Origin: Clostridia bacterium | GTDB lineage: Bacteria > Bacillota > Clostridia > Oscillospirales > Acutalibacteraceae | Direction of reading: 5' to 3' | Length of the DNA stretch: 19,215 nucleotides | Assembly (NCBI GenBank): GCA_017439205.1 | Contig: JAFRSZ010000272.1 | Span: 1-19,215, forward strand | Shown here: positions 1 through 5,302 of the stretch, one piece after another | How positions within the stretch are numbered: the first letter of the stretch is position 1 | Layout of the letters: every line of letters begins with the position of its first letter | Position numbers and translations under genes: made by a program | The notes under the pieces: model-generated | The model's database searches: none | The model's input: only the letters and a program-made list of their open reading frames with translations | What the model was told of the DNA's origin: nothing

Positions 1-4
1 AAGC

Positions 5-98
5 GAAGTCGCCCCTCAGGTAATCAGCTCCGAAGGAGCGTCTTCATTTCTTCATTAGCGAAACGTCTTCATTAGCCCCGCAAGGGGCGACTTCATTA
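5..98. repeat. Repeat-rich non-coding segment with four copies of CTTCATT (two as CTTCATTAGC), enclosed by a 12-bp perfect inverted repeat (5-16 vs 83-94) and a GCCCC-GCAA-GGGGC hairpin
   Basis: CTTCATT occurs at 42-48, 50-56, 67-73 and 91-97. GAAGTCGCCCCT (5-16) is the exact reverse complement of AGGGGCGACTTC (83-94). A GNRA-looped hairpin spans 75-88. There is no ORF, and the segment abuts the bidirectional terminator. Confidence 0.5.
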
Positions 99-125
99 AA
101 AAAGCACGCCTGAGCGTGCTTTTTT
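98..125. terminator. Bidirectional intrinsic terminator: GCACGC-CTGA-GCGTGC hairpin with A6 on the 5' side and T6 on the 3' side
   Basis: Perfect 6-bp GC-rich stem 104-109/114-119 with a 4-nt loop. A T-run 120-125 serves the plus strand and an A-run 98-103 serves the minus strand. It lies immediately 3' of tRNA-Trp on the minus strand. Confidence 0.7.
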
Positions 126-126
126 C

Positions 127-202
127 TGGCAGGGGCAGAAGGACTTGAACCCTCGGCACGCGGTTTTGGAGACCGCTGCTCTACCAACTGAGCTATACCC
201 CT
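127..202 (-). tRNA. trnW: tRNA-Trp (anticodon CCA), 76 nt with encoded CCA
   Basis: The reverse complement folds as a cloverleaf: acceptor AGGGGTA/TGCCCCT, D-stem GCTC/GAGC, anticodon stem GCGGT/ACCGC with loop CTCCAAA (anticodon CCA), and T-arm GAGGG-TTCAAGT-CCTTC. Discriminator is G followed by CCA. Confidence 0.9.
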
Positions 203-216
203 ATATTCAAATGATG

Positions 217-293
217 TGGTGGACCATCAGGGACTCGAACCCCGGACCGACCGGTTATGAGCCGGTTGCTCTAACCAACTGAGCTAATGGTCC
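217..293 (-). tRNA. trnM: tRNA-Met (anticodon CAT), elongator-type; could alternatively be tRNA-Ile2 (lysidine-modified CAU). 77 nt with encoded CCA
   Basis: The reverse complement is GGACCATTAGCTCAGTTGGTTAGAGCAACCGGCTCATAACCGGTCGGTCCGGGGTTCGAGTCCCTGATGGTCCACCA. The anticodon loop is CTCATAA and the T-loop is TTCGAGT. Position 1-72 is fully paired and the anticodon stem has no 3xG-C run, so it is not an initiator. Confidence 0.88.
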
Positions 294-310
294 TTGCCGA
301 CTGCCCCATT

Positions 311-339
311 ATTATATATGGACGGTAATAAAAAGTCAA
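311..339 (-). promoter_or_regulatory. Sigma-A type promoter for the tRNA-Met/tRNA-Trp unit: TTGACT-17-TATAAT
   Basis: On the minus strand the -35 TTGACT lies at 334-339 and the -10 TATAAT at 311-316, with an exact 17-nt spacer. The tRNA 5' end (293) is 17 nt downstream of the -10. The element sits 9 nt after the RT stop codon. Confidence 0.65.
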
Positions 340-348
340 GCATTATTT

Positions 349-1566
349 TTATTTATTTTTACCGGTCCTGTCTTCGCGGAAAACGTAGTATTCATGCACA
401 AGGCTCCGGTAGCCGAGCGCCTTCAGATCTTCGTACCTCGCGTTATACCGCGCTTTCGTGCGCGTATCTGTCAGCAGATACCGGATGCAGTCCTGCGCGT
501 AGCGGTCGATCTCGCCGAGCCGCTGCGCGGTTGTGATTACGGGGAAATACCAGAGCGACCACGTAAGCTCGTTATCGCCCGCGCTCTCAAACAGTTTTCG
601 GTTGAAAACGCGAATAAAAGCCTTCGCCGCTTTTTCATTCGGCAGGTCGCTGCGTTTCCGCCAGCGGGCAAGGGCTCTGGTTTTCCTGCGCATTTTCGCT
701 TTGAGTTTCTGCATCGACGCGGGGGCGACGTCCACTTCCCCGTTTTTGTACTCAAACCCAAGATAGATCCACCCTGTTTCGGGGGTGAACCGATCTTCTT
801 TTTTTTCATTCACCGAAAGGCCGTGCGTCAAAAGCTGCGCGCGGATCTCAGATGCATACGCTTCTGCCTTCTCCGCCGAATCCGCAAAAACAATGATATC
901 GTCCGAGTATCTGGCGTACAGAACGCCGCGTTCGGCAAAGACTGCGTCAAGATCGCCGAGATACAGATTCGCAAAAAACGCGGACAACGGCGTTCCCGCC
1001 ATGATGCCCTTTTGTTCCGTTACCGGTTTCCCGTTATCCATAACGTAAGGCTCGCAAAGCAGGCTTTCAAGAAAACGGCAGAGCGCGGCGTCATCACGAA
1101 GGATTCCGCGCAGTTTTACGAGCAGGGGTTCTATGGGGATGGAATTGAAATAATCGCTCACGTCCGCTTTATACACGTACATCCCGCGCATACCGGGCGC
1201 GTATTTCAGGCGCAGAACGGCGTCTTTTGCGGTTCGCCCGGGACGGAACGAATACAGATTGACTGAAAACACAGCGTCGTATTCGCGCAGCATCAGCCAG
1301 GTAAGCAGCTTCAGAACGGTGTTCTCCGCAAACGGATAGGTATATACCGTGCGCTTCTTCTGCGAGCTCATTTTGCATACGACGCTCTTTTTCGGAAGCG
1401 GGAACCGCCCGCCCGCAGCGATCTTTTCACATACGGGCAGGTAGGCCGCTGTGTCGATAAACGACCGCAGATCCCGCAGAAAGCTTTTCGGGCAGGACAG
1501 ATTGCTTTTATATTCGTAAAATGCCTCCCACATTTCGGGGCGGGACAAAAGATCAAGAAGACTCAT
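349..1566 (-). CDS. Stand-alone group II intron-like reverse transcriptase (RT fingers/palm plus maturase-like thumb/X domain; no endonuclease domain). The ORF track extends to a TTG at 1572; the first ATG is at 1564-1566
   Basis: The translation carries RT motifs. Motif 1-like is KRTVYTYPF..VLKLLTWL. Motif 2 is NLYSFRPGRTAKDAV, matching the group-II SYGFRPGRS. Motif 3 is YVYKADVSDYFNSI. Motif 4 is GTPLSAFFANLYLGDLD. Motif 5 is the catalytic YARYSDDIIVF (YxDD). Motif 6/7 is LSVNEKK...GWIYLGFEY. The C-terminal ~110 aa resemble a group II maturase (GIIM) domain (LTWSLWYF...IDRYAQDCIRYLL). The retron NAxxH and VTG motifs are absent, and so is the DGR SQ motif. Confidence 0.85.
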   Translation of the reverse strand: MSLLDLLSRPEMWEAFYEYKSNLSCPKSFLRDLRSFIDTAAYLPVCEKIAAGGRFPLPKKSVVCKMSSQKKRTVYTYPFAENTVLKLLTWLMLREYDAVFSVNLYSFRPGRTAKDAVLRLKYAPGMRGMYVYKADVSDYFNSIPIEPLLVKLRGILRDDAALCRFLESLLCEPYVMDNGKPVTEQKGIMAGTPLSAFFANLYLGDLDAVFAERGVLYARYSDDIIVFADSAEKAEAYASEIRAQLLTHGLSVNEKKEDRFTPETGWIYLGFEYKNGEVDVAPASMQKLKAKMRRKTRALARWRKRSDLPNEKAAKAFIRVFNRKLFESAGDNELTWSLWYFPVITTAQRLGEIDRYAQDCIRYLLTDTRTKARYNARYEDLKALGYRSLVHEYYVFREDRTGKNK

Positions 1567-1572
1567 AATCAA

Positions 1573-1757
1573 TAAAAAACAGCGCCCCGCAGACAGTAAA
1601 GCCCGCGGAGGCGCAAACCAAAACGAAAACAGAAAGGATTAAATCCCGGTAATTCCGGGATATACCGGGCCGTACATACGCGAACTGCCTGCGAAGTTTT
1701 ATAAGGCGTATGCCGGGTCCGCCGCAGGCGCAAAGCGTTCTGTTTTCGGTTTTGCCG
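1573..1757 (-). ncRNA. Candidate structured non-coding RNA element between the nuclease-fold gene and the RT gene. It may be an RT-associated ncRNA or a regulatory leader
   Basis: This 185-nt intergenic region has no ORF. An 11-bp perfect inverted repeat CGAAAACAGAA/TTCTGTTTTCG (1738-1748 vs 1624-1634) brackets the region. Inside it are nested stems GCCTGCG...CGCAGGC and GGCG...CGCC. There is a cluster of three CCGG-containing arms: GCCCGG tatat CCCGG, and TCCCGG-AATTA-CCGGGA as a perfect 6-bp hairpin. A GC hairpin plus T7 (minus-strand terminator-like, 1575-1612) ends 6 nt before the RT start. Confidence 0.3.
1624..1748 (-). repeat. 11-bp perfect inverted repeat pair (1624-1634 and 1738-1748) flanking the intergenic structured region
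   Basis: Plus strand 1624-1634 is cgaaaacagaa and plus strand 1738-1748 is ttctgttttcg. They are exact reverse complements spaced 103 nt apart, and 3-4 further pairs are possible beyond a 1-nt bulge. Confidence 0.6.
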
Positions 1758-2285
1758 TTATCTGAGAACCTTGCCGATGCGTTCCGTCACATATTTGCGG
1801 GTGTTCCACCAGCCGCTGTGGTCATAATAGAACCGCAGATACGGCACGCCTTCGGCTTCGGCGGCACGGCGGAAGCGCTGCGCTTCGCTGGATTCGCTTT
1901 TGAGCTCAACGATCAGCACCTTTGCGCCGTCACGGAAGAAGGTGTATATCGGGCTGAAGCTGTTTGATCCGGGCGCGGAAGTAAACGTATACGCGCCGAA
2001 ATCCTCACGGAAGATCTTTTCAAAATACTGGATATACGTACCGTTAAAATTATACTGATTTTCCTCTGCGGGAATATTGTCGTAAAAAGAATCGCCGTCT
2101 GGATATACGGATGCGGGAGTGGGCGCGGATTGCTGCGCTGCGGGCCTCGGCTGCGCCGTATGCTGCGAGGGTTTTTCAAACTGCAGCTTATCGGCTGCGT
2201 CCTTTAATTCCTGCGCCGCTTCCTTCATTTTATTGAGCGCGGATTCAACGTTTTTATCTGCGAACAGCTTATCGAACAAACCCAT
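1758..2285 (-). CDS. Small PD-(D/E)xK nuclease-fold protein (DUF559/Vsr-like C-terminal domain) with an N-terminal helical segment and a P/Q/A-rich linker. The true start is the ATG at 2283-2285, not the track's 2315
   Basis: The start has the RBS AGGAGG 7 nt upstream of ATG GGT TTG (MGLFDKLF...). The C-terminal domain carries a PD-(D/E)xK-like signature, FFRDGAKVLIVELKS, with the spacing D..(7)..E-L-K. It also has a DUF559-like tail, RFRRAAEAEGVPYLRFYYD, matching R..R..LE..GW.VLRF. Confidence 0.6.
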   Translation of the reverse strand: MGLFDKLFADKNVESALNKMKEAAQELKDAADKLQFEKPSQHTAQPRPAAQQSAPTPASVYPDGDSFYDNIPAEENQYNFNGTYIQYFEKIFREDFGAYTFTSAPGSNSFSPIYTFFRDGAKVLIVELKSESSEAQRFRRAAEAEGVPYLRFYYDHSGWWNTRKYVTERIGKVLR

Positions 2286-2385
2286 AATGATCCTCCTGCA
2301 AAAATAGTGTTTCAAATAAAACTGGCCGATAAACGCATAGGGATACCGGCCGGATTTTGTCTGTTAAGATGAATCGTCACATTGA

Positions 2386-2538
2386 TCAGTCTAAGGACGT
2401 AATGCCGGTCGCAAAGGAAAACAGGCCGCCTATTCTCTGAAAAATGTCCGTAAGATAAGAGAGGACAACTGCAAGCACCTGCAGCGCGGGAACAGCTCTT
2501 GAAACAGCGCCGTCCAGATTAACGCCTTCTTTATTCAT
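2386..2538 (-). CDS. Possible small ORF (50 aa, hydrophobic; MNKEGVNLDGAVSRAVPALQVLAVVLSYLTDIFQRIGGLFSFATGITSLD) within the long leader
   Basis: The RBS GAGGT sits 7 nt upstream of the ATG at 2536-2538. The frame is open to TGA at 2386-2388. The ORF starts ~45 nt downstream of the predicted promoter. It falls below the 60-aa cutoff of the supplied ORF track, and it contains one predicted hydrophobic helix. Confidence 0.25.
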   Translation of the reverse strand: MNKEGVNLDGAVSRAVPALQVLAVVLSYLTDIFQRIGGLFSFATGITSLD

Positions 2539-2592
2539 TGCAAATACCTCAACGGAATAAATCCGTCCCTTTCTTTATATTTTTTCATAATG

Positions 2593-2621
2593 ATTATACA
2601 ATACTTTCGGCAAAAAAGCAA
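2593..2621 (-). promoter_or_regulatory. Sigma-A type promoter TTGCTT-17-TATAAT (TG adjacent to the -10) driving the leader, nuclease-fold gene and RT
   Basis: On the minus strand the -35 lies at 2616-2621 and the -10 at 2593-2598, with an exact 17-nt spacer. It is located just after the stop of the PP2C-like gene. The predicted transcription start is ~300 nt upstream of the nuclease-fold gene start. Confidence 0.5.
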
Positions 2622-2640
2622 GCAGTTTTTTTATATGCGG

Positions 2641-3987
2641 TCAATCCTCATCGCCGCCTTCTTCGCTGCCTTCTTCACCGCCCTGATTTTCAGTGGAAAC
2701 ATCGCCGGTCTCGGGCTCCTGCGAAGAGGTGGGTTCTGTGGATTCTTCTGCATCGGTTGAGCCTTCGGTAGGTTCCTCTTCCCGTTCGGTGGTGGGGACC
2801 GTTGCGGGCTCTTCTTCGGTTTCATCCTCTTCCGGATAATTGGCTCTTGTTGGGGCGGACGTCGCTTTTTCTGTTGTCGGGGCTTCGGTGGTGGACTCCG
2901 CCGTTGTGGATACTTCAGTGGTTGAAGTTTCACTGGGTTTCTGCGTCGTGGACGTCTGCGCGGCGGCATTCTGCGATTCGCTTACCGAAACAGAAGCTGA
3001 AACGGAGCTGGGATCGACCGTGGAATCGCCGGGGTCTCCGTGGGATTCGGACCAGTATTTGATACCGAACAGAACACCAGCGATCACCGCGCACGCAAGA
3101 AGCAGAATCAGGAACAAACGTCCTGCCTTTTTGCCCTTGCTCACCGGAGCGGTTTCTTCTTCGCCGCCTTCTTCCTCAGGCTGCTCTTCGGCATGCTGTT
3201 CGGTTTTATCCGCGTCTTCTTCGGTAATCTCTTCAGCAGCGGCATGGGCAGCTGCAGCGGCGGCAGGAACCTCGGCAGGCGCTTTTGCGGCAGAAGGCTC
3301 GGCTTCGGTAATCTTAATTACGATGGCGCTGACGGCTTCTTTGCAGCCGTATTTTGCCGCCTGCGACGCGATCAGAGAAACGATCTTTTTCACATCACCC
3401 GCAGCGTTTTTGCAAACGGCTTCCAGCAGACCTGCGGGAAGGGACGACACCGTTTTACCGGAAAGCAGAATAAAGATATCTCCCGCCTTAACGTTGCTGC
3501 ACTGGGCAACGCCGAACGAGGATTTATTATCCGAAAAACCAATCTGCTGAGGAACGATCTCGATAAAAGTATCGTCATAAAAAGTATATGCTTTGTTGCC
3601 GCCTGCGGTGGCAATATAAACCGTATCGTCCACACCGGTAAGGATCGAGAAATCGCAGTCGGATGAAGAGAAACCGGTTTCGTTCAGCACTTTTGCAAAG
3701 GCTTTCAGATAATCCGCGATCAGCACCGCATCATTGGAACCGTCCTCGCTGAATTTTTCAACGCAGGACCGGAACAGGCTCGCCGCACTCTCCGCAGTCC
3801 CCTTCTTATCCGAACTCGCAAGCACATAGTAAGGGCGGTCGGAACCCGTACCGGCGGCACGGACCCCCTTTTCGCCGTTGACGACGTCTTTCGGCCACAG
3901 CTTACCGGAAACGTTTACGTAATCCGTATTAAAATCTCTTGCGGCGCCTTTTCTGGAAACGACCGCGGTTTCAACTGAAATGGACAT
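2641..3987 (-). CDS. PP2C-like (apparently catalytically degenerate) phosphatase-fold domain, followed by one transmembrane helix and a long acidic Ser/Thr/Glu-rich low-complexity tail
   Basis: The RBS GGAGG lies 8 nt upstream of ATG TCC ATT (MSISVETAVV). The N-terminus matches the PP2C pattern SR.GAAR.FNTDY. The canonical DGMGG metal motif is replaced by SSDKKGT and the CSDGL motif by LSGKT. The TM segment is LFLILLLACAVIAGVLFGIKYW. The tail has STTE/EEE repeats. The gene overlaps the folC end by 17 nt. Confidence 0.6.
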   Translation of the reverse strand: MSISVETAVVSRKGAARDFNTDYVNVSGKLWPKDVVNGEKGVRAAGTGSDRPYYVLASSDKKGTAESAASLFRSCVEKFSEDGSNDAVLIADYLKAFAKVLNETGFSSSDCDFSILTGVDDTVYIATAGGNKAYTFYDDTFIEIVPQQIGFSDNKSSFGVAQCSNVKAGDIFILLSGKTVSSLPAGLLEAVCKNAAGDVKKIVSLIASQAAKYGCKEAVSAIVIKITEAEPSAAKAPAEVPAAAAAAHAAAEEITEEDADKTEQHAEEQPEEEGGEEETAPVSKGKKAGRLFLILLLACAVIAGVLFGIKYWSESHGDPGDSTVDPSSVSASVSVSESQNAAAQTSTTQKPSETSTTEVSTTAESTTEAPTTEKATSAPTRANYPEEDETEEEPATVPTTEREEEPTEGSTDAEESTEPTSSQEPETGDVSTENQGGEEGSEEGGDED

Positions 3988-5302
3988 GCGAATTTCCTCC
4001 AATATATTTATAATCTTTCACTGTTTTCAATAAATGCGCTCTCACGTCGGACGCAAGATAAAGCGAACCGCAAACAACGAGCATATCGTAATCTTTCAGC
4101 TGAATGAAAGCCTCGTCGATCGCGCGTATGGGATCTTCCAGCGCCTGCGCCTCGGTTCCGCCGCGCCGCACAATACCGGCAAATTCCTCCGCAGGCATCG
4201 CGCGCGGGTTGGACGGCGTAACAGCGATCACCTTTGCGAAATACGGGCAGAGATGCTCCGTTGCCTTTTCACAGTCTTTATCTCGCATCATGCCCATCAC
4301 GGCGAGGATGCGTTTATTTGAAGCGAACCGCTCCAACAGCGCAGCCAGCGCAGCGGTGGAGCCGTCGTTATGGGAGCCGTCGAGAAGGATCAGCGGATCT
4401 CTGCAAACGATCTCCGTGCGGGCGGGGATAAACGACGCTTCAATACCTTCCTTGATCTGCTTTCTTGTGATATCGAGGCCGTTCACGCCGATCACTTCAC
4501 ACGCTTTCACGGACAGAGCTGCGTTCTGCAGCTGATGCTCCCCGGCAAACGGAATATGGATAGGCGTATCTCTGTATGTAACGTCGGCGCCGTCAAGCGA
4601 AGTCTCCCCTACCTGAAACAGGTCTTCCGAAGCCGCTTCAAACAGGAACGAGCCTTTTTCTGCGGCGACGGCGCGGATCACCCGGGCAGCCTCGGGCGCC
4701 TGCGATGCGGTTGTAACTGAGTGGCAGCGCGGTTTGATAATACCGCATTTTTCGTACGCGATCTCACCGAGCGTATTGCCCAGAACATTCATATGATCCA
4801 TCGAAACGGAAGTGATCACGCTGACGATCGGATCTTCAATGATGTTCGTTGCGTCGTACCTGCCGCCGAGCCCGGTTTCCAGCACAGCCACCCTGCAGCC
4901 CGCCTGCGCGAAATACAGGAAGGCCGCGGCGGTGATCGCCTCGAATTCGGTGGGCGAAACGCCCTGCGCGTTCAGAGCAAGAACGGCCTCTTTGACCTTT
5001 TCGGTGACCGAAACGAGCGCATCGGGCGGGATCATCCGGTTATCCACCTGTATGCGCTCTCTGAAATCGAGCACGTACGGCGAGGTATACAAGCCGGTTT
5101 TGAACCCCGCGACGCGAAGGATATTTGAAATCTCGGTGCACACCGTGCCCTTGCCGTTGGTTCCCGCAACGTGCACATAACGCATCTGTTTCTCGGGATG
5201 CCCCAGATATTCGCACAGAGCGCCGATCCGCTCAAGCCCGGGCCGGATGCCGAAGCGTTCCAGCGAATGGTAGAACGCGACTGCGCTGTTATAATCCATC
5301 AT
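3971..5302 (-). CDS. folC: Folylpolyglutamate synthase / dihydrofolate synthase (FolC, Mur ligase family)
   Basis: The P-loop VHVAGTNGKGTV is typical of Mur ligases. The ORF has the full-length FolC architecture (443 aa). Its ATG sits 1 nt after the valS TGA, so the two are translationally coupled. This matches the valS-folC synteny known from Bacillus. Confidence 0.85.
   Translation of the reverse strand: MMDYNSAVAFYHSLERFGIRPGLERIGALCEYLGHPEKQMRYVHVAGTNGKGTVCTEISNILRVAGFKTGLYTSPYVLDFRERIQVDNRMIPPDALVSVTEKVKEAVLALNAQGVSPTEFEAITAAAFLYFAQAGCRVAVLETGLGGRYDATNIIEDPIVSVITSVSMDHMNVLGNTLGEIAYEKCGIIKPRCHSVTTASQAPEAARVIRAVAAEKGSFLFEAASEDLFQVGETSLDGADVTYRDTPIHIPFAGEHQLQNAALSVKACEVIGVNGLDITRKQIKEGIEASFIPARTEIVCRDPLILLDGSHNDGSTAALAALLERFASNKRILAVMGMMRDKDCEKATEHLCPYFAKVIAVTPSNPRAMPAEEFAGIVRRGGTEAQALEDPIRAIDEAFIQLKDYDMLVVCGSLYLASDVRAHLLKTVKDYKYIGGNSHVHFS

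What the first reader, a model, noticed from the sequence alone, without database searches (positions are those of the whole stretch)
349..2621. Candidate RT-based module: promoter - long leader with sORF - PD-(D/E)xK nuclease-fold protein - structured ncRNA-like spacer - stand-alone group-II-like RT
A consensus promoter (2593-2621) heads a co-directional unit. It encodes a small nuclease-fold protein and a 406-aa group-II-intron-like RT. No ribozyme domains are present, and the 185 nt between the two genes is too short for domains I-IV. The RT has no HNH/En domain. The two genes are separated by a 185-nt highly structured segment bracketed by an 11-bp inverted repeat. RT plus nuclease plus template-like ncRNA is the parts list of known defence-associated RT systems and of RT-linked repair. 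This particular combination next to a tRNA pair is not a named system. The nuclease-fold and RT assignments rest on motifs read by eye.
Basis: partly seen in the sequence, partly recalled or inferred. Interest (0 to 1): 0.8.

Follow-up and report, generated by a model that had tools for sequence, protein, structure and literature searches.

The report
UG26 reverse transcriptase with partner RNA
This is a catalogued but never experimentally studied three-part bacterial module (a small nuclease-fold protein, a folded non-coding RNA and a reverse transcriptase) that probably copies part of its own RNA into DNA; the RNA turns out to be larger and more elaborately folded than its database entry shows.

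Summary
On the minus strand lie a small gene (2285-1758), a 185-nt structured spacer and a 405-aa reverse transcriptase (RT; 1566-349).

It is not unnamed:
- The RT is a full-length match to PADLOC RT_UG26, a Class 2 UG/Abi RT.
- The small protein matches PADLOC RTasCOG2852.
- The spacer contains Rfam RT-5 RNA (RF03026).

Of 80 related loci from rumen and gut Clostridia, 74 carry the small gene and 75 carry the RNA, always in the same order.

New here:
- The RNA is about 137 nt (1754-1618).
- It contains a covarying 7-bp pseudoknot.

The small protein has a Vsr/DUF559-like fold. It lacks the canonical catalytic residues and does not match DUF559 by sequence.

The genomic context is variable. 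It shows no defence islands, phage or plasmid genes. The promoter, the sORF leader and the tRNA pair are local features, not part of the module.

Most likely mechanism, by analogy with DRT2, DRT9 and DRT10: the RT binds the RNA and copies a short segment of it into DNA, with the small protein as accessory or effector. This is inferred, not shown. UG26 has no published functional study in the library I searched.

The parts
2593..2621 (-). Candidate sigma-70-type promoter: -35 TTGCTT at 2621-2616, a 17-nt spacer, -10 TATAAT at 2598-2593. It is local to this lineage.
   Evidence: Read from the sequence. The -10 is perfect and the -35 matches 3 of 6, so the consensus scan did not list it. It is conserved in L081 at 95% nucleotide identity.
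2386..2538 (-). sORF of 50 aa, hydrophobic. It is lineage-specific and not part of the conserved module.
   Evidence: ORF. L081 has the same ORF with one amino-acid change, and a 50-aa gene sits at the same place in GCA_016648615.1. jackhmmer found no homologue upstream of the small gene in the other loci.
1758..2285 (-). Accessory protein of 175 aa. It has an N-terminal MGLFxKL helix, a disordered linker, and a C-terminal domain of about 105 aa with a Vsr/DUF559-like restriction-endonuclease fold. It corresponds to PADLOC RTasCOG2852, which I equate by name with Mestre cluster 1531 (the COG2852 protein).
1618..1754 (-). Complete ncRNA of about 137 nt, made of Rfam RT-5 plus the closing helix P0 found here.
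   Evidence: Rfam hit. The covariance model R1 gives one hit per locus in 75 of 80 loci.
1738..1754 (-). P0 5' strand, purine-rich. It starts 4 nt after the stop codon of the small gene.
   Evidence: It pairs with 1634-1618. On 70 sequences, 89.7% of cells are paired against 54-63% when the partner is slid, and 15 of 19 pairs show compensatory changes. Duplex z-score is below -2 in 70 of 76 loci.
1618..1634 (-). P0 3' strand, pyrimidine-rich. The family consensus is UUCUCUUUCUGYUUUUU.
1631..1733 (-). Match to Rfam RF03026 (RT-5 RNA).
   Evidence: 89.5 bits against a gathering score of 45.7, E 1e-17.
1723..1729 (-). Pseudoknot 5' strand, GCCUGCG.
   Evidence: It pairs with 1693-1687. Across 69 distinct sequences, 99.8% of cells are paired and 3 of 7 pairs show changes on both sides.
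1687..1693 (-). Pseudoknot 3' strand, CGCAGGC, in the P3 hairpin loop.
1666..1721 (-). Helices P1 (1721-1716 with 1671-1666), P2 (1713-1706 with 1681-1674) and P3 (1698-1695 with 1686-1683). The variable internal loop is at 1705-1699.
   Evidence: RNAalifold consensus and pair counts: 94.9% of cells paired against 26-42% when slid, and 23 of 31 pairs with compensatory changes.
1645..1659 (-). Hairpin P4 (CCCGG-loop-CCGGG).
   Evidence: All 6 pairs show compensatory changes.
1639..1643 (-). Invariant UUUAA in the single-stranded junction between P4 and P0. It is the candidate site for initiation or templating (inferred).
   Evidence: 100% conserved in 76 ncRNAs and flanked by two helices.
1585..1610 (-). 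Terminator-like hairpin followed by a U-run, between the ncRNA and the RT start. It is present in only a subset of loci.
349..1566 (-). UG26 reverse transcriptase (405 aa) with the catalytic YSDD at 909-898. No SD precedes the start.
   Evidence: PADLOC RT_UG26 E 1.2e-168, profile positions 1-397 of 398. Pfam RVT_1 only. D135 and Y220-S-D-D223 are invariant in 26 homologues. The AF2 model has pLDDT 91.5. The closest solved fold is the GsI-IIC group II intron RT at TM 0.70-0.78, followed by G2L4, DRT9 and DRT2.

Best explanation
The locus is a UG26-type module (Class 2 of the UG/Abi reverse transcriptases). It is one operon that encodes, in order, a small Vsr/DUF559-fold accessory protein, a pseudoknotted ncRNA of about 137 nt (Rfam RT-5 plus a closing helix), and the RT.

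Shown here:
- The identity of the three parts.
- Their near-obligate linkage and fixed order in this clade.
- An intact RT active site.
- An RNA fold with four covarying nested helices, a covarying pseudoknot and a long covarying terminal helix.

Inferred by analogy with the characterised Class 2 relatives (DRT2, DRT9, DRT10 = UG17, DRT3):
- The RT binds the RNA encoded immediately upstream of its own start codon.
- It uses a short single-stranded segment framed by two helices as a template for cDNA synthesis. The best candidate is the invariant UUUAA junction between P4 and P0.
- The small protein binds or processes the RNA/DNA product, or transduces its accumulation into an effect on the cell.

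Because the 3' strand of P0 ends 6-30 nt before the RT start codon, which often lacks a Shine-Dalgarno motif, RNA folding or RT binding probably also limits RT translation.

The biological role is most likely protection against phage or other invading DNA, but this is the weakest link in the argument.
For: Identity of the parts:
- RT_UG26 at 559 bits over the full length, and RTasCOG2852 at 164 bits.
- RT-5 at 89.5 bits.

Linkage across related loci:
- The small gene is present in 74 of 80 loci and the RNA in 75 of 80. There is exactly one RNA copy per locus, always between the two genes.

RNA structure:
- Covariation supports the nested helices, the pseudoknot and P0.

RT competence and relatives:
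- The catalytic residues are invariant.
- After UG26 and a generic RT model (PDLC01136), the best PADLOC matches are UG17 (= DRT10), UG4, a Cas1-fused RT model (Cas1_IIIb), Drt9 and UG27.
- The RT model resembles DRT9 and DRT2 as well as group II intron RTs.

Literature:
- Class 2 systems need a cis-encoded ncRNA that templates repetitive cDNA from a single-stranded window framed by two stem-loops (PMC12632851; bioRxiv 10.64898/2026.06.29.735271; PMC12483538).
- DRT10 is likewise a tripartite module of effector, ncRNA and RT (bioRxiv 10.64898/2026.04.29.721553).

Translation signals:
- An SD-like motif is present in 39 of 67 RT starts, against 53 of 55 small-gene starts.
- In the 12 loci where P0 ends within 15 nt of the RT ATG, 11 lack an SD.
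Against: - There is no direct evidence of cDNA, RNA binding or defence for any UG26 member. Mestre 2022 rated the defence prediction for UG26 as 'inconclusive'.
- The immediate neighbours of 71 loci are ordinary metabolic and transport genes, with no defence or mobile-element enrichment.
- No close relatives occur in phage, plasmid or IMG/VR collections.
- No convincing A-B-A' template pattern was found. The variable loop shows no enrichment over shuffles, and the conserved 3' tail is a helix strand rather than a single-stranded template.
- The accessory protein lacks the canonical PD-(D/E)xK residues, so its role as a nuclease is doubtful.
- Three intact RTs lack both partners nearby.
Confidence: 0.6

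Rival explanations
1. Retron-like mechanism. The long terminal helix P0 acts like the a1/a2 inverted repeats of a retron ncRNA. A conserved G at the inner end of the 5' strand (the AACGC motif) would supply a 2'-OH primer. The RT would copy from the UUUAA junction through P4 to give a short RNA-linked msDNA.
For: P0 pairs the 5' and 3' ends of the ncRNA and covaries. A conserved A-A-C-G-C sits at the inner 5' end, with A23 and C26 invariant and G25 at 90% or more. An invariant junction lies opposite it. Weinberg et al. 2017 speculated that RT motifs act in retrons (PMC5737381).
Against: The RT is not a retron RT. The retron St85 model scores 43.7 bits against a cutoff of 235, and retron RTs rank below group II, DRT9 and DRT2 in the fold comparison. 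Per the papers read, DRT9 and DRT10 are protein-primed (PMC12483538; PMC12632851); I did not check how DRT2 or DRT3 are primed. No msd-like long hairpin is present.
Confidence: 0.12
2. The RNA is mainly a cis-regulatory leader. The RT binds it, or it folds on its own, to throttle RT translation, as group II intron proteins do at domain IVa. The RT would act on other substrates, for example in DNA repair like G2L4, with the small protein as a nuclease partner.
For: The RNA ends 6-30 nt before the RT start codon. SD motifs are often missing there. A subset of loci has a terminator-like hairpin in between. The closest solved folds are the GsI-IIC RT and G2L4. The genomic context is housekeeping-like.
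Against: A 137-nt RNA with a pseudoknot, four helices and many invariant single-stranded bases is more than an operator needs. By HMM the RT belongs to UG/Abi Class 2, not to G2L. The accessory protein lacks canonical catalytic residues. Regulation and templating are not mutually exclusive.
Confidence: 0.15
3. A non-defence, host-beneficial function in rumen and gut Clostridia. The module would be a conserved RNP that makes a specific DNA product for a cellular process.
For: The RT and RNA are unusually conserved. Median pairwise RT identity is 0.61 across family labels, 0.618 within labels against 0.603 between them. There is a single copy per locus. Relatives occur in at least 579 species genomes. 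No defence-island or mobile-element context was found. Synteny with a housekeeping neighbourhood is stable within the genus.
Against: The position differs from locus to locus, which points to horizontal spread typical of accessory or defence cassettes. Per the DRT papers read here, the characterised Class 2 relatives (DRT2, DRT3, DRT9, DRT10) are antiviral; Mestre 2022 predicted non-defence roles for UG4 and UG27. Only immediate neighbours were examined here.
Confidence: 0.1
4. A degenerate or fragmented group II intron or other mobile retroelement.
For: NCBI annotates homologues as 'group II intron reverse transcriptase domain-containing protein'. The best sequence and fold matches in the PDB are group II intron RTs.
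Against: No group II ribozyme family was detected. TIGR04416 scores 109.6 bits against a cutoff of 300. There is no GIIM or En domain. The RNA lies only upstream of the RT and is 137 nt. The module is linked to a protein gene that introns do not carry. There is one RNA copy and one RT match per locus examined; whole genomes were not surveyed.
Confidence: 0.03

Closest known systems
UG26 group of Class 2 UG/Abi reverse transcriptases (Mestre et al. 2022, NAR, PMC9226505; PADLOC models RT_UG26 and RTasCOG2852)
   Same: The RT matches the family HMM end to end (559 bits). It has an RT domain only and is about 400 aa. It is co-located with the COG2852-annotated small protein, which matches the RTasCOG2852 model.
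   Different: Nothing differs in kind: this is a member. This analysis adds several points. In this clade the small protein is near-universal (74 of 80 loci), whereas the paper reports 9 of 35. The group has a dedicated ncRNA, which the paper does not report. The 'COG2852' protein does not match DUF559 by sequence.
Rfam RF03026, RT-5 RNA (Weinberg et al. 2017, PMC5737381)
   Same: The window scores 89.5 bits over model positions 1-104, lies next to an RT gene, and has the same nested helices.
   Different: The Rfam match covers 103 nt. The conserved element extends on both sides into a roughly 17-bp closing helix. In the consensus structure printed by cmscan, the two strands that form the pseudoknot are unpaired. 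No function or RT family was assigned in the original description.
DRT10 (UG17): RT plus ncRNA plus SLATT, telomerase-like tandem-repeat synthesis (PMC12632851; bioRxiv 10.64898/2026.04.29.721553 and 10.64898/2026.06.29.735271)
   Same: It is the nearest characterised UG group by HMM (RT_UG17 E 2.8e-30). It is also a tripartite module of effector, ncRNA and RT. Its ncRNA is structured, with single-stranded junctions framed by stem-loops.
   Different: The accessory protein here is a Vsr-fold domain, not a 2-TM SLATT. The gene order differs. The RNA is unrelated in sequence. No A-B-A' template was identified. No product is known.
DRT9 (UG28) and DRT2 (UG2): ncRNA-templated poly-dA, and rolling-circle cDNA giving the neo gene (PMC12483538; PMC12039810)
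   Same: The ncRNA is encoded directly upstream of the RT. DRT2 has a pseudoknotted RNA. DRT9 has a short invariant U-containing single-stranded segment. Both are among the top structural matches.
   Different: Those systems need only the RT and the ncRNA. Here a third protein is nearly always present. The U run is only 3 nt long. The RT is smaller and closer to group II intron RTs.
Retron ncRNA (msr-msd with a1/a2 inverted repeats)
   Same: The 5' and 3' ends of the ncRNA pair in a long helix, and the RT gene lies immediately downstream.
   Different: The RT is not of the retron family. There is no msd hairpin. The priming chemistry is unknown.
Vsr / DUF559 / I-Bth0305I / RAP-domain branch of the PD-(D/E)xK superfold
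   Different: There is no sequence-level match (Pfam, PDB profile). The canonical acidic and lysine residues are not conserved, and only E127 in beta-3 is invariant. The family has its own invariant motifs, PAEENQYNF and YYDHxGWWNTR.

Membership tests
UG26 (Class 2 UG/Abi RT) | The RT matches the group-specific HMM over its full length, better than any other RT group. | tested here: met
   PADLOC RT_UG26 E 1.2e-168, 559 bits, profile positions 1-397 of 398. The next specific group is UG17 at 103.5 bits.
UG26 (Class 2 UG/Abi RT) | Class 2 definition: an RT with no additional known domain. | tested here: met
   Pfam finds RVT_1 only in 405 aa. The AF2 model shows fingers, palm and a helical thumb only.
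UG26 (Class 2 UG/Abi RT) | Intact polymerase active site (motif A Asp, and YxDD). | tested here: met
   D135 and Y220-S221-D222-D223 are invariant in 26 homologues.
UG26 (Class 2 UG/Abi RT) | Association with the COG2852-annotated accessory protein (cluster 1531). | tested here: met
   PADLOC RTasCOG2852 E 9.4e-49 over the full length. The gene is present upstream in 74 of 80 loci.
UG26 (Class 2 UG/Abi RT) | Anti-phage defence activity (needed for DRT status). | not testable with these tools
   No experiment is reported. The context analysis shows no defence enrichment.
Rfam RT-5 RNA (RF03026) | Score at or above the curated gathering threshold over the full model. | tested here: met
   89.5 bits against 45.7, model positions 1-104. 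Eight homologous loci score 58.7-100 bits.
Rfam RT-5 RNA (RF03026) | Conserved secondary structure supported by covariation. | tested here: met
   94.9% of cells are paired against 26-42% when slid, and 23 of 31 pairs show compensatory changes.
Group II intron | Ribozyme domains I-VI flanking the ORF. | tested here: not met
   No intron family in 1-4200 at E <= 1. Only 185 nt lie upstream of the RT, and tRNA genes lie downstream.
Group II intron | The intron-encoded protein reaches the equivalog cutoff or has a maturase (GIIM) domain. | tested here: not met
   TIGR04416 scores 109.6 bits against a cutoff of 300. Pfam finds no GIIM.
Retron | Retron-type RT. | tested here: not met
   NF038233 scores 43.7 bits against a cutoff of 235. 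Retron RTs rank low in the fold search.
Retron | ncRNA whose ends pair (a1/a2), with a priming G and an msd hairpin; msDNA is produced. | tested here: inconclusive
   A terminal helix P0 is present and covaries. There is no msd-like hairpin. msDNA cannot be tested with these tools.
DRT10 / UG17 | UG17 RT, SLATT effector and an A-B-A' template loop. | tested here: not met
   The UG17 HMM is only a secondary match. Neither protein of the module matched a SLATT model in PADLOC or Pfam. There is no A-B-A' enrichment in the variable loop.
DUF559 / Vsr-like PD-(D/E)xK nuclease | Restriction-endonuclease-like alpha-beta-beta-beta-alpha-beta fold. | tested here: met
DUF559 / Vsr-like PD-(D/E)xK nuclease | Sequence match to the family model. 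| tested here: not met
   None of 66 members hits DUF559 at E <= 1. The family profile finds nothing in the PDB. It reaches only 280 clusters among 1.84 billion representatives.
DUF559 / Vsr-like PD-(D/E)xK nuclease | Conserved catalytic residues (Asp in beta-2, and (D/E)xK or ExD in beta-3). | tested here: not met
   Only E127 is invariant. K129 is Met or Leu in most homologues. There is no conserved Asp in beta-2. A variant site built from E74, E127, D155 and H156 cannot be excluded.

The most novel reading that the evidence does not exclude
UG26 plus RT-5 may be a new mechanistic type among Class 2 RTs. In this reading, an RNA closed by a retron-like terminal helix and locked by a pseudoknot directs synthesis of a defined or repetitive DNA from the invariant UUUAA junction. 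A catalytically degenerate Vsr-fold protein would read that product. The system might serve a conserved cellular role in rumen and gut Clostridia rather than classical defence-island immunity.
Probability: 0.25. Interest if true: 0.8.

Novelty: new member of a known kind. Interest (0 to 1): 0.5.

Why it matters
Each Class 2 UG reverse transcriptase studied so far has revealed an unexpected way of making DNA:
- DRT2 assembles a gene de novo.
- DRT9 makes poly-dA.
- DRT10 adds repeats like telomerase.
- DRT3 makes an alternating poly(GT/AC) double-stranded product.

UG26 is still a blank. This analysis ties three separately catalogued items together into one tripartite module: the UG26 RT, the 'COG2852' protein and the orphan Rfam motif RT-5.

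It also provides:
- the full boundaries and fold of the RNA, including the terminal helix and the pseudoknot;
- the observation that the supposed nuclease lacks canonical catalytic residues;
- a cultured carrier, Ruminococcus flavefaciens MA2007.

Together these make the system directly testable. The window itself is an ordinary member of the group.

Tried and rejected
1. The conserved pyrimidine tail (UUCUCUUUCUGYUUUUU) as a single-stranded A-B-A' or poly-U template. Rejected: it is the 3' strand of a covarying helix with the purine-rich 5' flank.
2. An A-B-A' template in the variable P2/P3 internal loop. Repeats of 3 nt or more occur in 24 of 70 loops, against about 26 expected from shuffles.
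3. GUAC-GGUCCG-GUAC (1675-1662) as an A-B-A' unit. Both GUA triplets are invariant, so there is no covariation to test. The fourth base is not concordant, and the middle segment is the covarying 3' strand of P1. Left as unsupported.
4. The sORF as a conserved component or effector. jackhmmer found no homologue in the other loci.
5. Conserved synteny with valS, folC or the tRNAs. Absent from the 80 genome-collection loci (L001-L080); found only in one close relative at 83% RT identity.
6. Defence-island or mobile-element context. Pfam and PADLOC scans of 131 flanking proteins gave heterogeneous metabolic genes. Phage, plasmid and IMG/VR searches gave only distant RTs.
7. A sequence-level link from the small protein to DUF559 or to any solved structure. 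None was found.
8. The afdb50 fold library was unavailable.
9. Compositional anomaly of the module. None: GC is 0.50-0.55, against 0.52-0.60 in the flanks.

Full report
**What is in the sequence**

Everything of interest is on the minus strand.
- A 405-aa ORF runs from ATG 1566 to the stop at 349. It is 407 aa if counted from TTG 1572.
- A 175-aa ORF runs from ATG 2285 to the stop at 1758. It is preceded by AGGAGG at 2297-2292, so the TTG at 2315 is not the start.
- The two ORFs are separated by exactly 185 nt (1573-1757).
- Upstream lie a 50-aa sORF (2538-2386) and a promoter-like site. Its -10 (TATAAT, 2598-2593) is perfect. Its -35 (TTGCTT) matches only 3 of 6, which is why the consensus scan did not list it.
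- Downstream of the RT stop, tRNA-Met (293-217) and tRNA-Trp (202-127) have their own near-consensus promoter at 339-311.

**Identity of the three parts**

The RT:
- It has Pfam RVT_1 only.
- It matches the PADLOC model RT_UG26 end to end (E 1.2e-168, 559 bits, profile positions 1-397 of 398). The next specific group is UG17 at 103 bits.
- It fails the group II intron equivalog cutoff (109.6 against 300 bits) and all the NCBIfam Drt and retron cutoffs.

The small protein:
- It has no Pfam hit.
- It matches PADLOC RTasCOG2852 over its full length (E 9.4e-49).

The spacer:
- It contains Rfam RF03026 'RT-5 RNA' at 1733-1631 (89.5 bits, gathering score 45.7).
- No group II ribozyme family was detected in 1-4200.

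Literature:
- Mestre et al. 2022 (PMC9226505) describe UG26 as a Class 2 UG/Abi group. They report it co-located with a COG2852 protein in 9 of 35 members, rate its defence prediction 'inconclusive', and report no ncRNA.
- Weinberg et al. 2017 (PMC5737381) list RT-1 to RT-19 as orphan motifs near RT genes.
- In the searchable library, UG26 as an RT group appears only in Mestre 2022 and in one virome survey.

So the module is a catalogued kind whose function has not been studied. The link between RT-5 and UG26 is not stated in what I could read.

**Relatives**

- The RT family is large: 3081 proteins at E <= 1e-10 among the candidates scored.
- Nearly all are rumen or gut Clostridia (Ruminococcaceae/Oscillospiraceae, Lachnospiraceae). 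They include the cultured Ruminococcus flavefaciens MA2007 (L060).

Among the 80 best loci:
- tblastn finds the small protein directly upstream of the RT, on the same strand, in 74.
- A covariance model built here finds exactly one RT-5 RNA in 75, always between the two genes.
- Rfam's own model scores above threshold in all eight RNA-bearing loci tested that were not N-masked; L079, whose RNA is partly masked, scored nothing.

Exceptions:
- Two loci are truncated by contig ends (L034, L072).
- Three RTs have neither partner (L048, L073, L074).
- One locus keeps the RNA but has a hydrolase gene where the small gene should be (L070).
- Divergent UG26 RTs (33-36% identity, still 310 bits to RT_UG26) on IMG/VR contigs lack both partners. 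This may explain the low co-occurrence in the published survey.

**The RNA**

*Nested helices and pseudoknot.* An alignment of 70 RNAs (A2) gives a consensus fold that agrees with Rfam. It has P1, P2 and P3 stacked in one arm, plus a separate hairpin P4. Counting pairs gives:
- 94.9% of cells paired, against 26-42% when the 3' partner is slid by 1-3 columns;
- 23 of 31 pairs with changes on both sides;
- 0 of 500 shuffles reaching the observed values.

The 5' segment GCCUGCG (1729-1723) pairs with the P3 loop CGCAGGC (1693-1687). This pseudoknot is 99.8% paired, and three of its pairs show compensatory changes. One example is U-A to C-G in six sequences.

*Closing helix P0.* Beyond the Rfam model, the 3' side continues as a conserved tail, UUUAA-YGNY-UUCUCUUUCUGYUUUUU. 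I first took this tail for a possible template. It is in fact the 3' strand of a long helix with a purine-rich segment (AAAAARCAGAAAGAGAA) that starts a few nucleotides after the small gene's stop codon.
- RNAduplex z-scores are below -2 in 70 of 76 loci.
- On alignment A6, the 19 pairs are 89.7% paired, against 54-63% when slid. That baseline is high because one strand is purine-rich and the other pyrimidine-rich.
- 15 pairs show double changes, with 101 compensatory cells against 26 in shuffles.
- In the window this helix is 1754-1738 with 1634-1618, with 15 of 17 positions paired.

*Overall architecture.* The complete RNA is therefore about 137 nt (1754-1618). It is closed by P0. It has two conserved single-stranded junctions framed by helices:
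- GUAYAU, between P1 and P4;
- (A/C)UUUAAYG, between P4 and P0, in which UUUAA is invariant in 76 of 76 sequences.

The only variable part is the 5' internal loop between P2 and P3.

**The proteins**

The RT:
- The AF2 model is confident (pLDDT 91.5).
- Its closest solved structure is the GsI-IIC group II intron RT (TM 0.70-0.78). G2L4, DRT9 and DRT2 follow (sequence-level results).
- The catalytic D135 and YSDD are invariant.

The small protein:
- It has an N-terminal MGLFxKL helix, a disordered linker, and a C-terminal domain of about 105 aa. That domain is modelled with pLDDT above 90 as alpha-beta-beta-beta-alpha-beta-alpha.
- Foldseek gives only a weak hit to a restriction enzyme.
- By sequence there is no link. 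None of 66 homologues hits DUF559 at E <= 1. The family profile finds nothing in the PDB. It recruits only 280 clusters from 1.84 billion representatives.
- In the alignment only E127 in beta-3 is invariant. The lysine of the window's E-L-K is Met or Leu in most homologues, and no Asp is conserved in beta-2.
- The family's own invariant motifs are PAEENQYNF and YYDHxGWWNTRxYV. Some members duplicate the domain or fuse it to a zinc ribbon.

The 'nuclease fold' is thus supported, but 'nuclease' is not.

**Context**

- The window's neighbours are housekeeping genes: folC, valS, recD2 and mreB.
- The same order is kept in a relative with 83% RT identity.
- None of the 80 loci shares this neighbourhood.
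- tRNA genes lie close to the RT in only a handful of loci, and they are of various kinds.
- The immediate neighbours of 71 loci are heterogeneous metabolic and transport genes, with no defence or mobile-element enrichment.
- Phage, plasmid and IMG/VR collections hold no close relative.
- GC content is unremarkable.
- RT identity is about 0.61 regardless of family label, but the nearest neighbours tend to share a label: 35 of 43, against 21 expected. This fits old diversification with some horizontal transfer.
- The sORF and leader occur only in close relatives.

**How it most likely works**

Shown: three co-inherited parts in fixed order, a competent polymerase, and an elaborate conserved RNA fold.

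Inferred: the RT binds this RNA and reverse-transcribes a short part of it. This follows from the characterised Class 2 relatives.
- DRT2, DRT9, DRT10 (= UG17, the nearest characterised group by HMM) and DRT3 all use a cis-encoded ncRNA as template.
- In each, a short single-stranded window is framed by two anchored stem-loops (PMC12632851; bioRxiv 10.64898/2026.06.29.735271; PMC12483538).
- DRT10 is also a tripartite module of effector, ncRNA and RT.

Here the junction that best fits is the invariant UUUAA between P4 and P0. A retron-like model would also start copying there, because it sits at the inner end of the terminal helix. I could not identify a template repeat pattern, so the product is unknown.

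The small protein is most likely a binder, processor or effector acting on the nucleic-acid product.

An additional and more directly supported point concerns translation. P0 ends 6-30 nt before the RT start. The RT start has an SD-like motif in only 39 of 67 loci, against 53 of 55 for the small gene. Where P0 ends within 15 nt of the ATG, 11 of 12 loci have no SD. RNA folding or RT binding probably limits RT translation.

A defence role is the default by family analogy, but it has no support from context.

**Verdict**

The parts list is right. The module is a named kind, not an unnamed one. The leader, sORF and tRNAs are not part of it, and the nuclease activity is doubtful.
- Novelty: a new member of a known, uncharacterised kind.
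- The RNA's extended architecture and the RT-5/UG26/accessory linkage are useful additions that make the system testable.

Noticed in passing
window 2386-2538 (-): A hydrophobic 50-aa sORF with a GAGG Shine-Dalgarno motif. It is kept in close relatives: L081 has one amino-acid change, and a 50-aa gene sits at the same place in GCA_016648615.1. It is absent upstream of the small gene in the other 74 loci. It may be a lineage-specific small membrane protein.
   Followed up: partly
L081 2164-3347: In a metagenomic relative whose small protein is 95% identical to the window's and whose leader is 95% identical in nucleotides, the RT is called as two ORFs of 111 and 275 aa. This could be a frameshift or pseudogene, or an assembly error.
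   Followed up: no
L082-L085 (IMG/VR contigs), e.g. L083 2461-3708: Divergent UG26 RTs (33-36% identity, PADLOC RT_UG26 310 bits) lie on low-GC contigs predicted to be viral. They have neither the RT-5 RNA nor the small protein. This looks like a separate UG26 subclade with different partners.
   Followed up: partly
L048 2695-3948; L074 5905-7206; L073 5862-7287; L070 5039-7194: Intact UG26 RTs without partners. L048 and L074 abut unrelated genes. L073 has a tRNA-Val 64 nt upstream of the RT. L070 keeps the RNA, but an alpha/beta-hydrolase gene replaces the small gene.
   Followed up: partly
window 1567-1617 and the equivalent stretch in L001-L080: The RT start codon has an SD-like motif in only 39 of 67 loci, against 53 of 55 for the small gene. 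Where helix P0 ends within 15 nt of the ATG, 11 of 12 loci lack an SD. A subset of loci (the window, L006, L009, L041, L080) has a terminator-like hairpin between the RNA and the RT.
   Followed up: partly
proteins P0240-P0244, P0249, P0330, P0336, P0348, P0352, P0353: The C-terminal domain of the small protein also occurs as tandem duplications (2-4 matched stretches). It also occurs fused to an N-terminal zinc ribbon, with a very long proline-rich or repeat linker in P0353 (P0352 instead shows only a weak bacterial-PH-like hit). The whole family comprises only 280 clusters at 50% identity.
   Followed up: partly
window 311-351: The near-consensus promoter of the tRNA-Met/tRNA-Trp pair (TTGACT-17-TATAAT, 339-311) starts 10 nt after the RT stop codon, and no terminator lies between them. 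RT transcripts could therefore read into the tRNAs.
   Followed up: no
A2 columns 32-53; L009, L028, L041, L043, L044, L059, L067, L001, L063: The only variable part of the ncRNA is the 5' internal loop between P2 and P3. It is usually 8-13 nt. Several lineages insert an extra hairpin of 10-15 nt or more there.
   Followed up: partly
window 2641-4002 (-): A 453-aa protein with no Pfam family, a predicted hydrophobic segment, and a long acidic, Thr/Ser/Glu-rich low-complexity C-terminus. It overlaps the end of folC by 32 nt. A 444-aa protein with no Pfam hit lies at the same position in the 83% relative.
   Followed up: no
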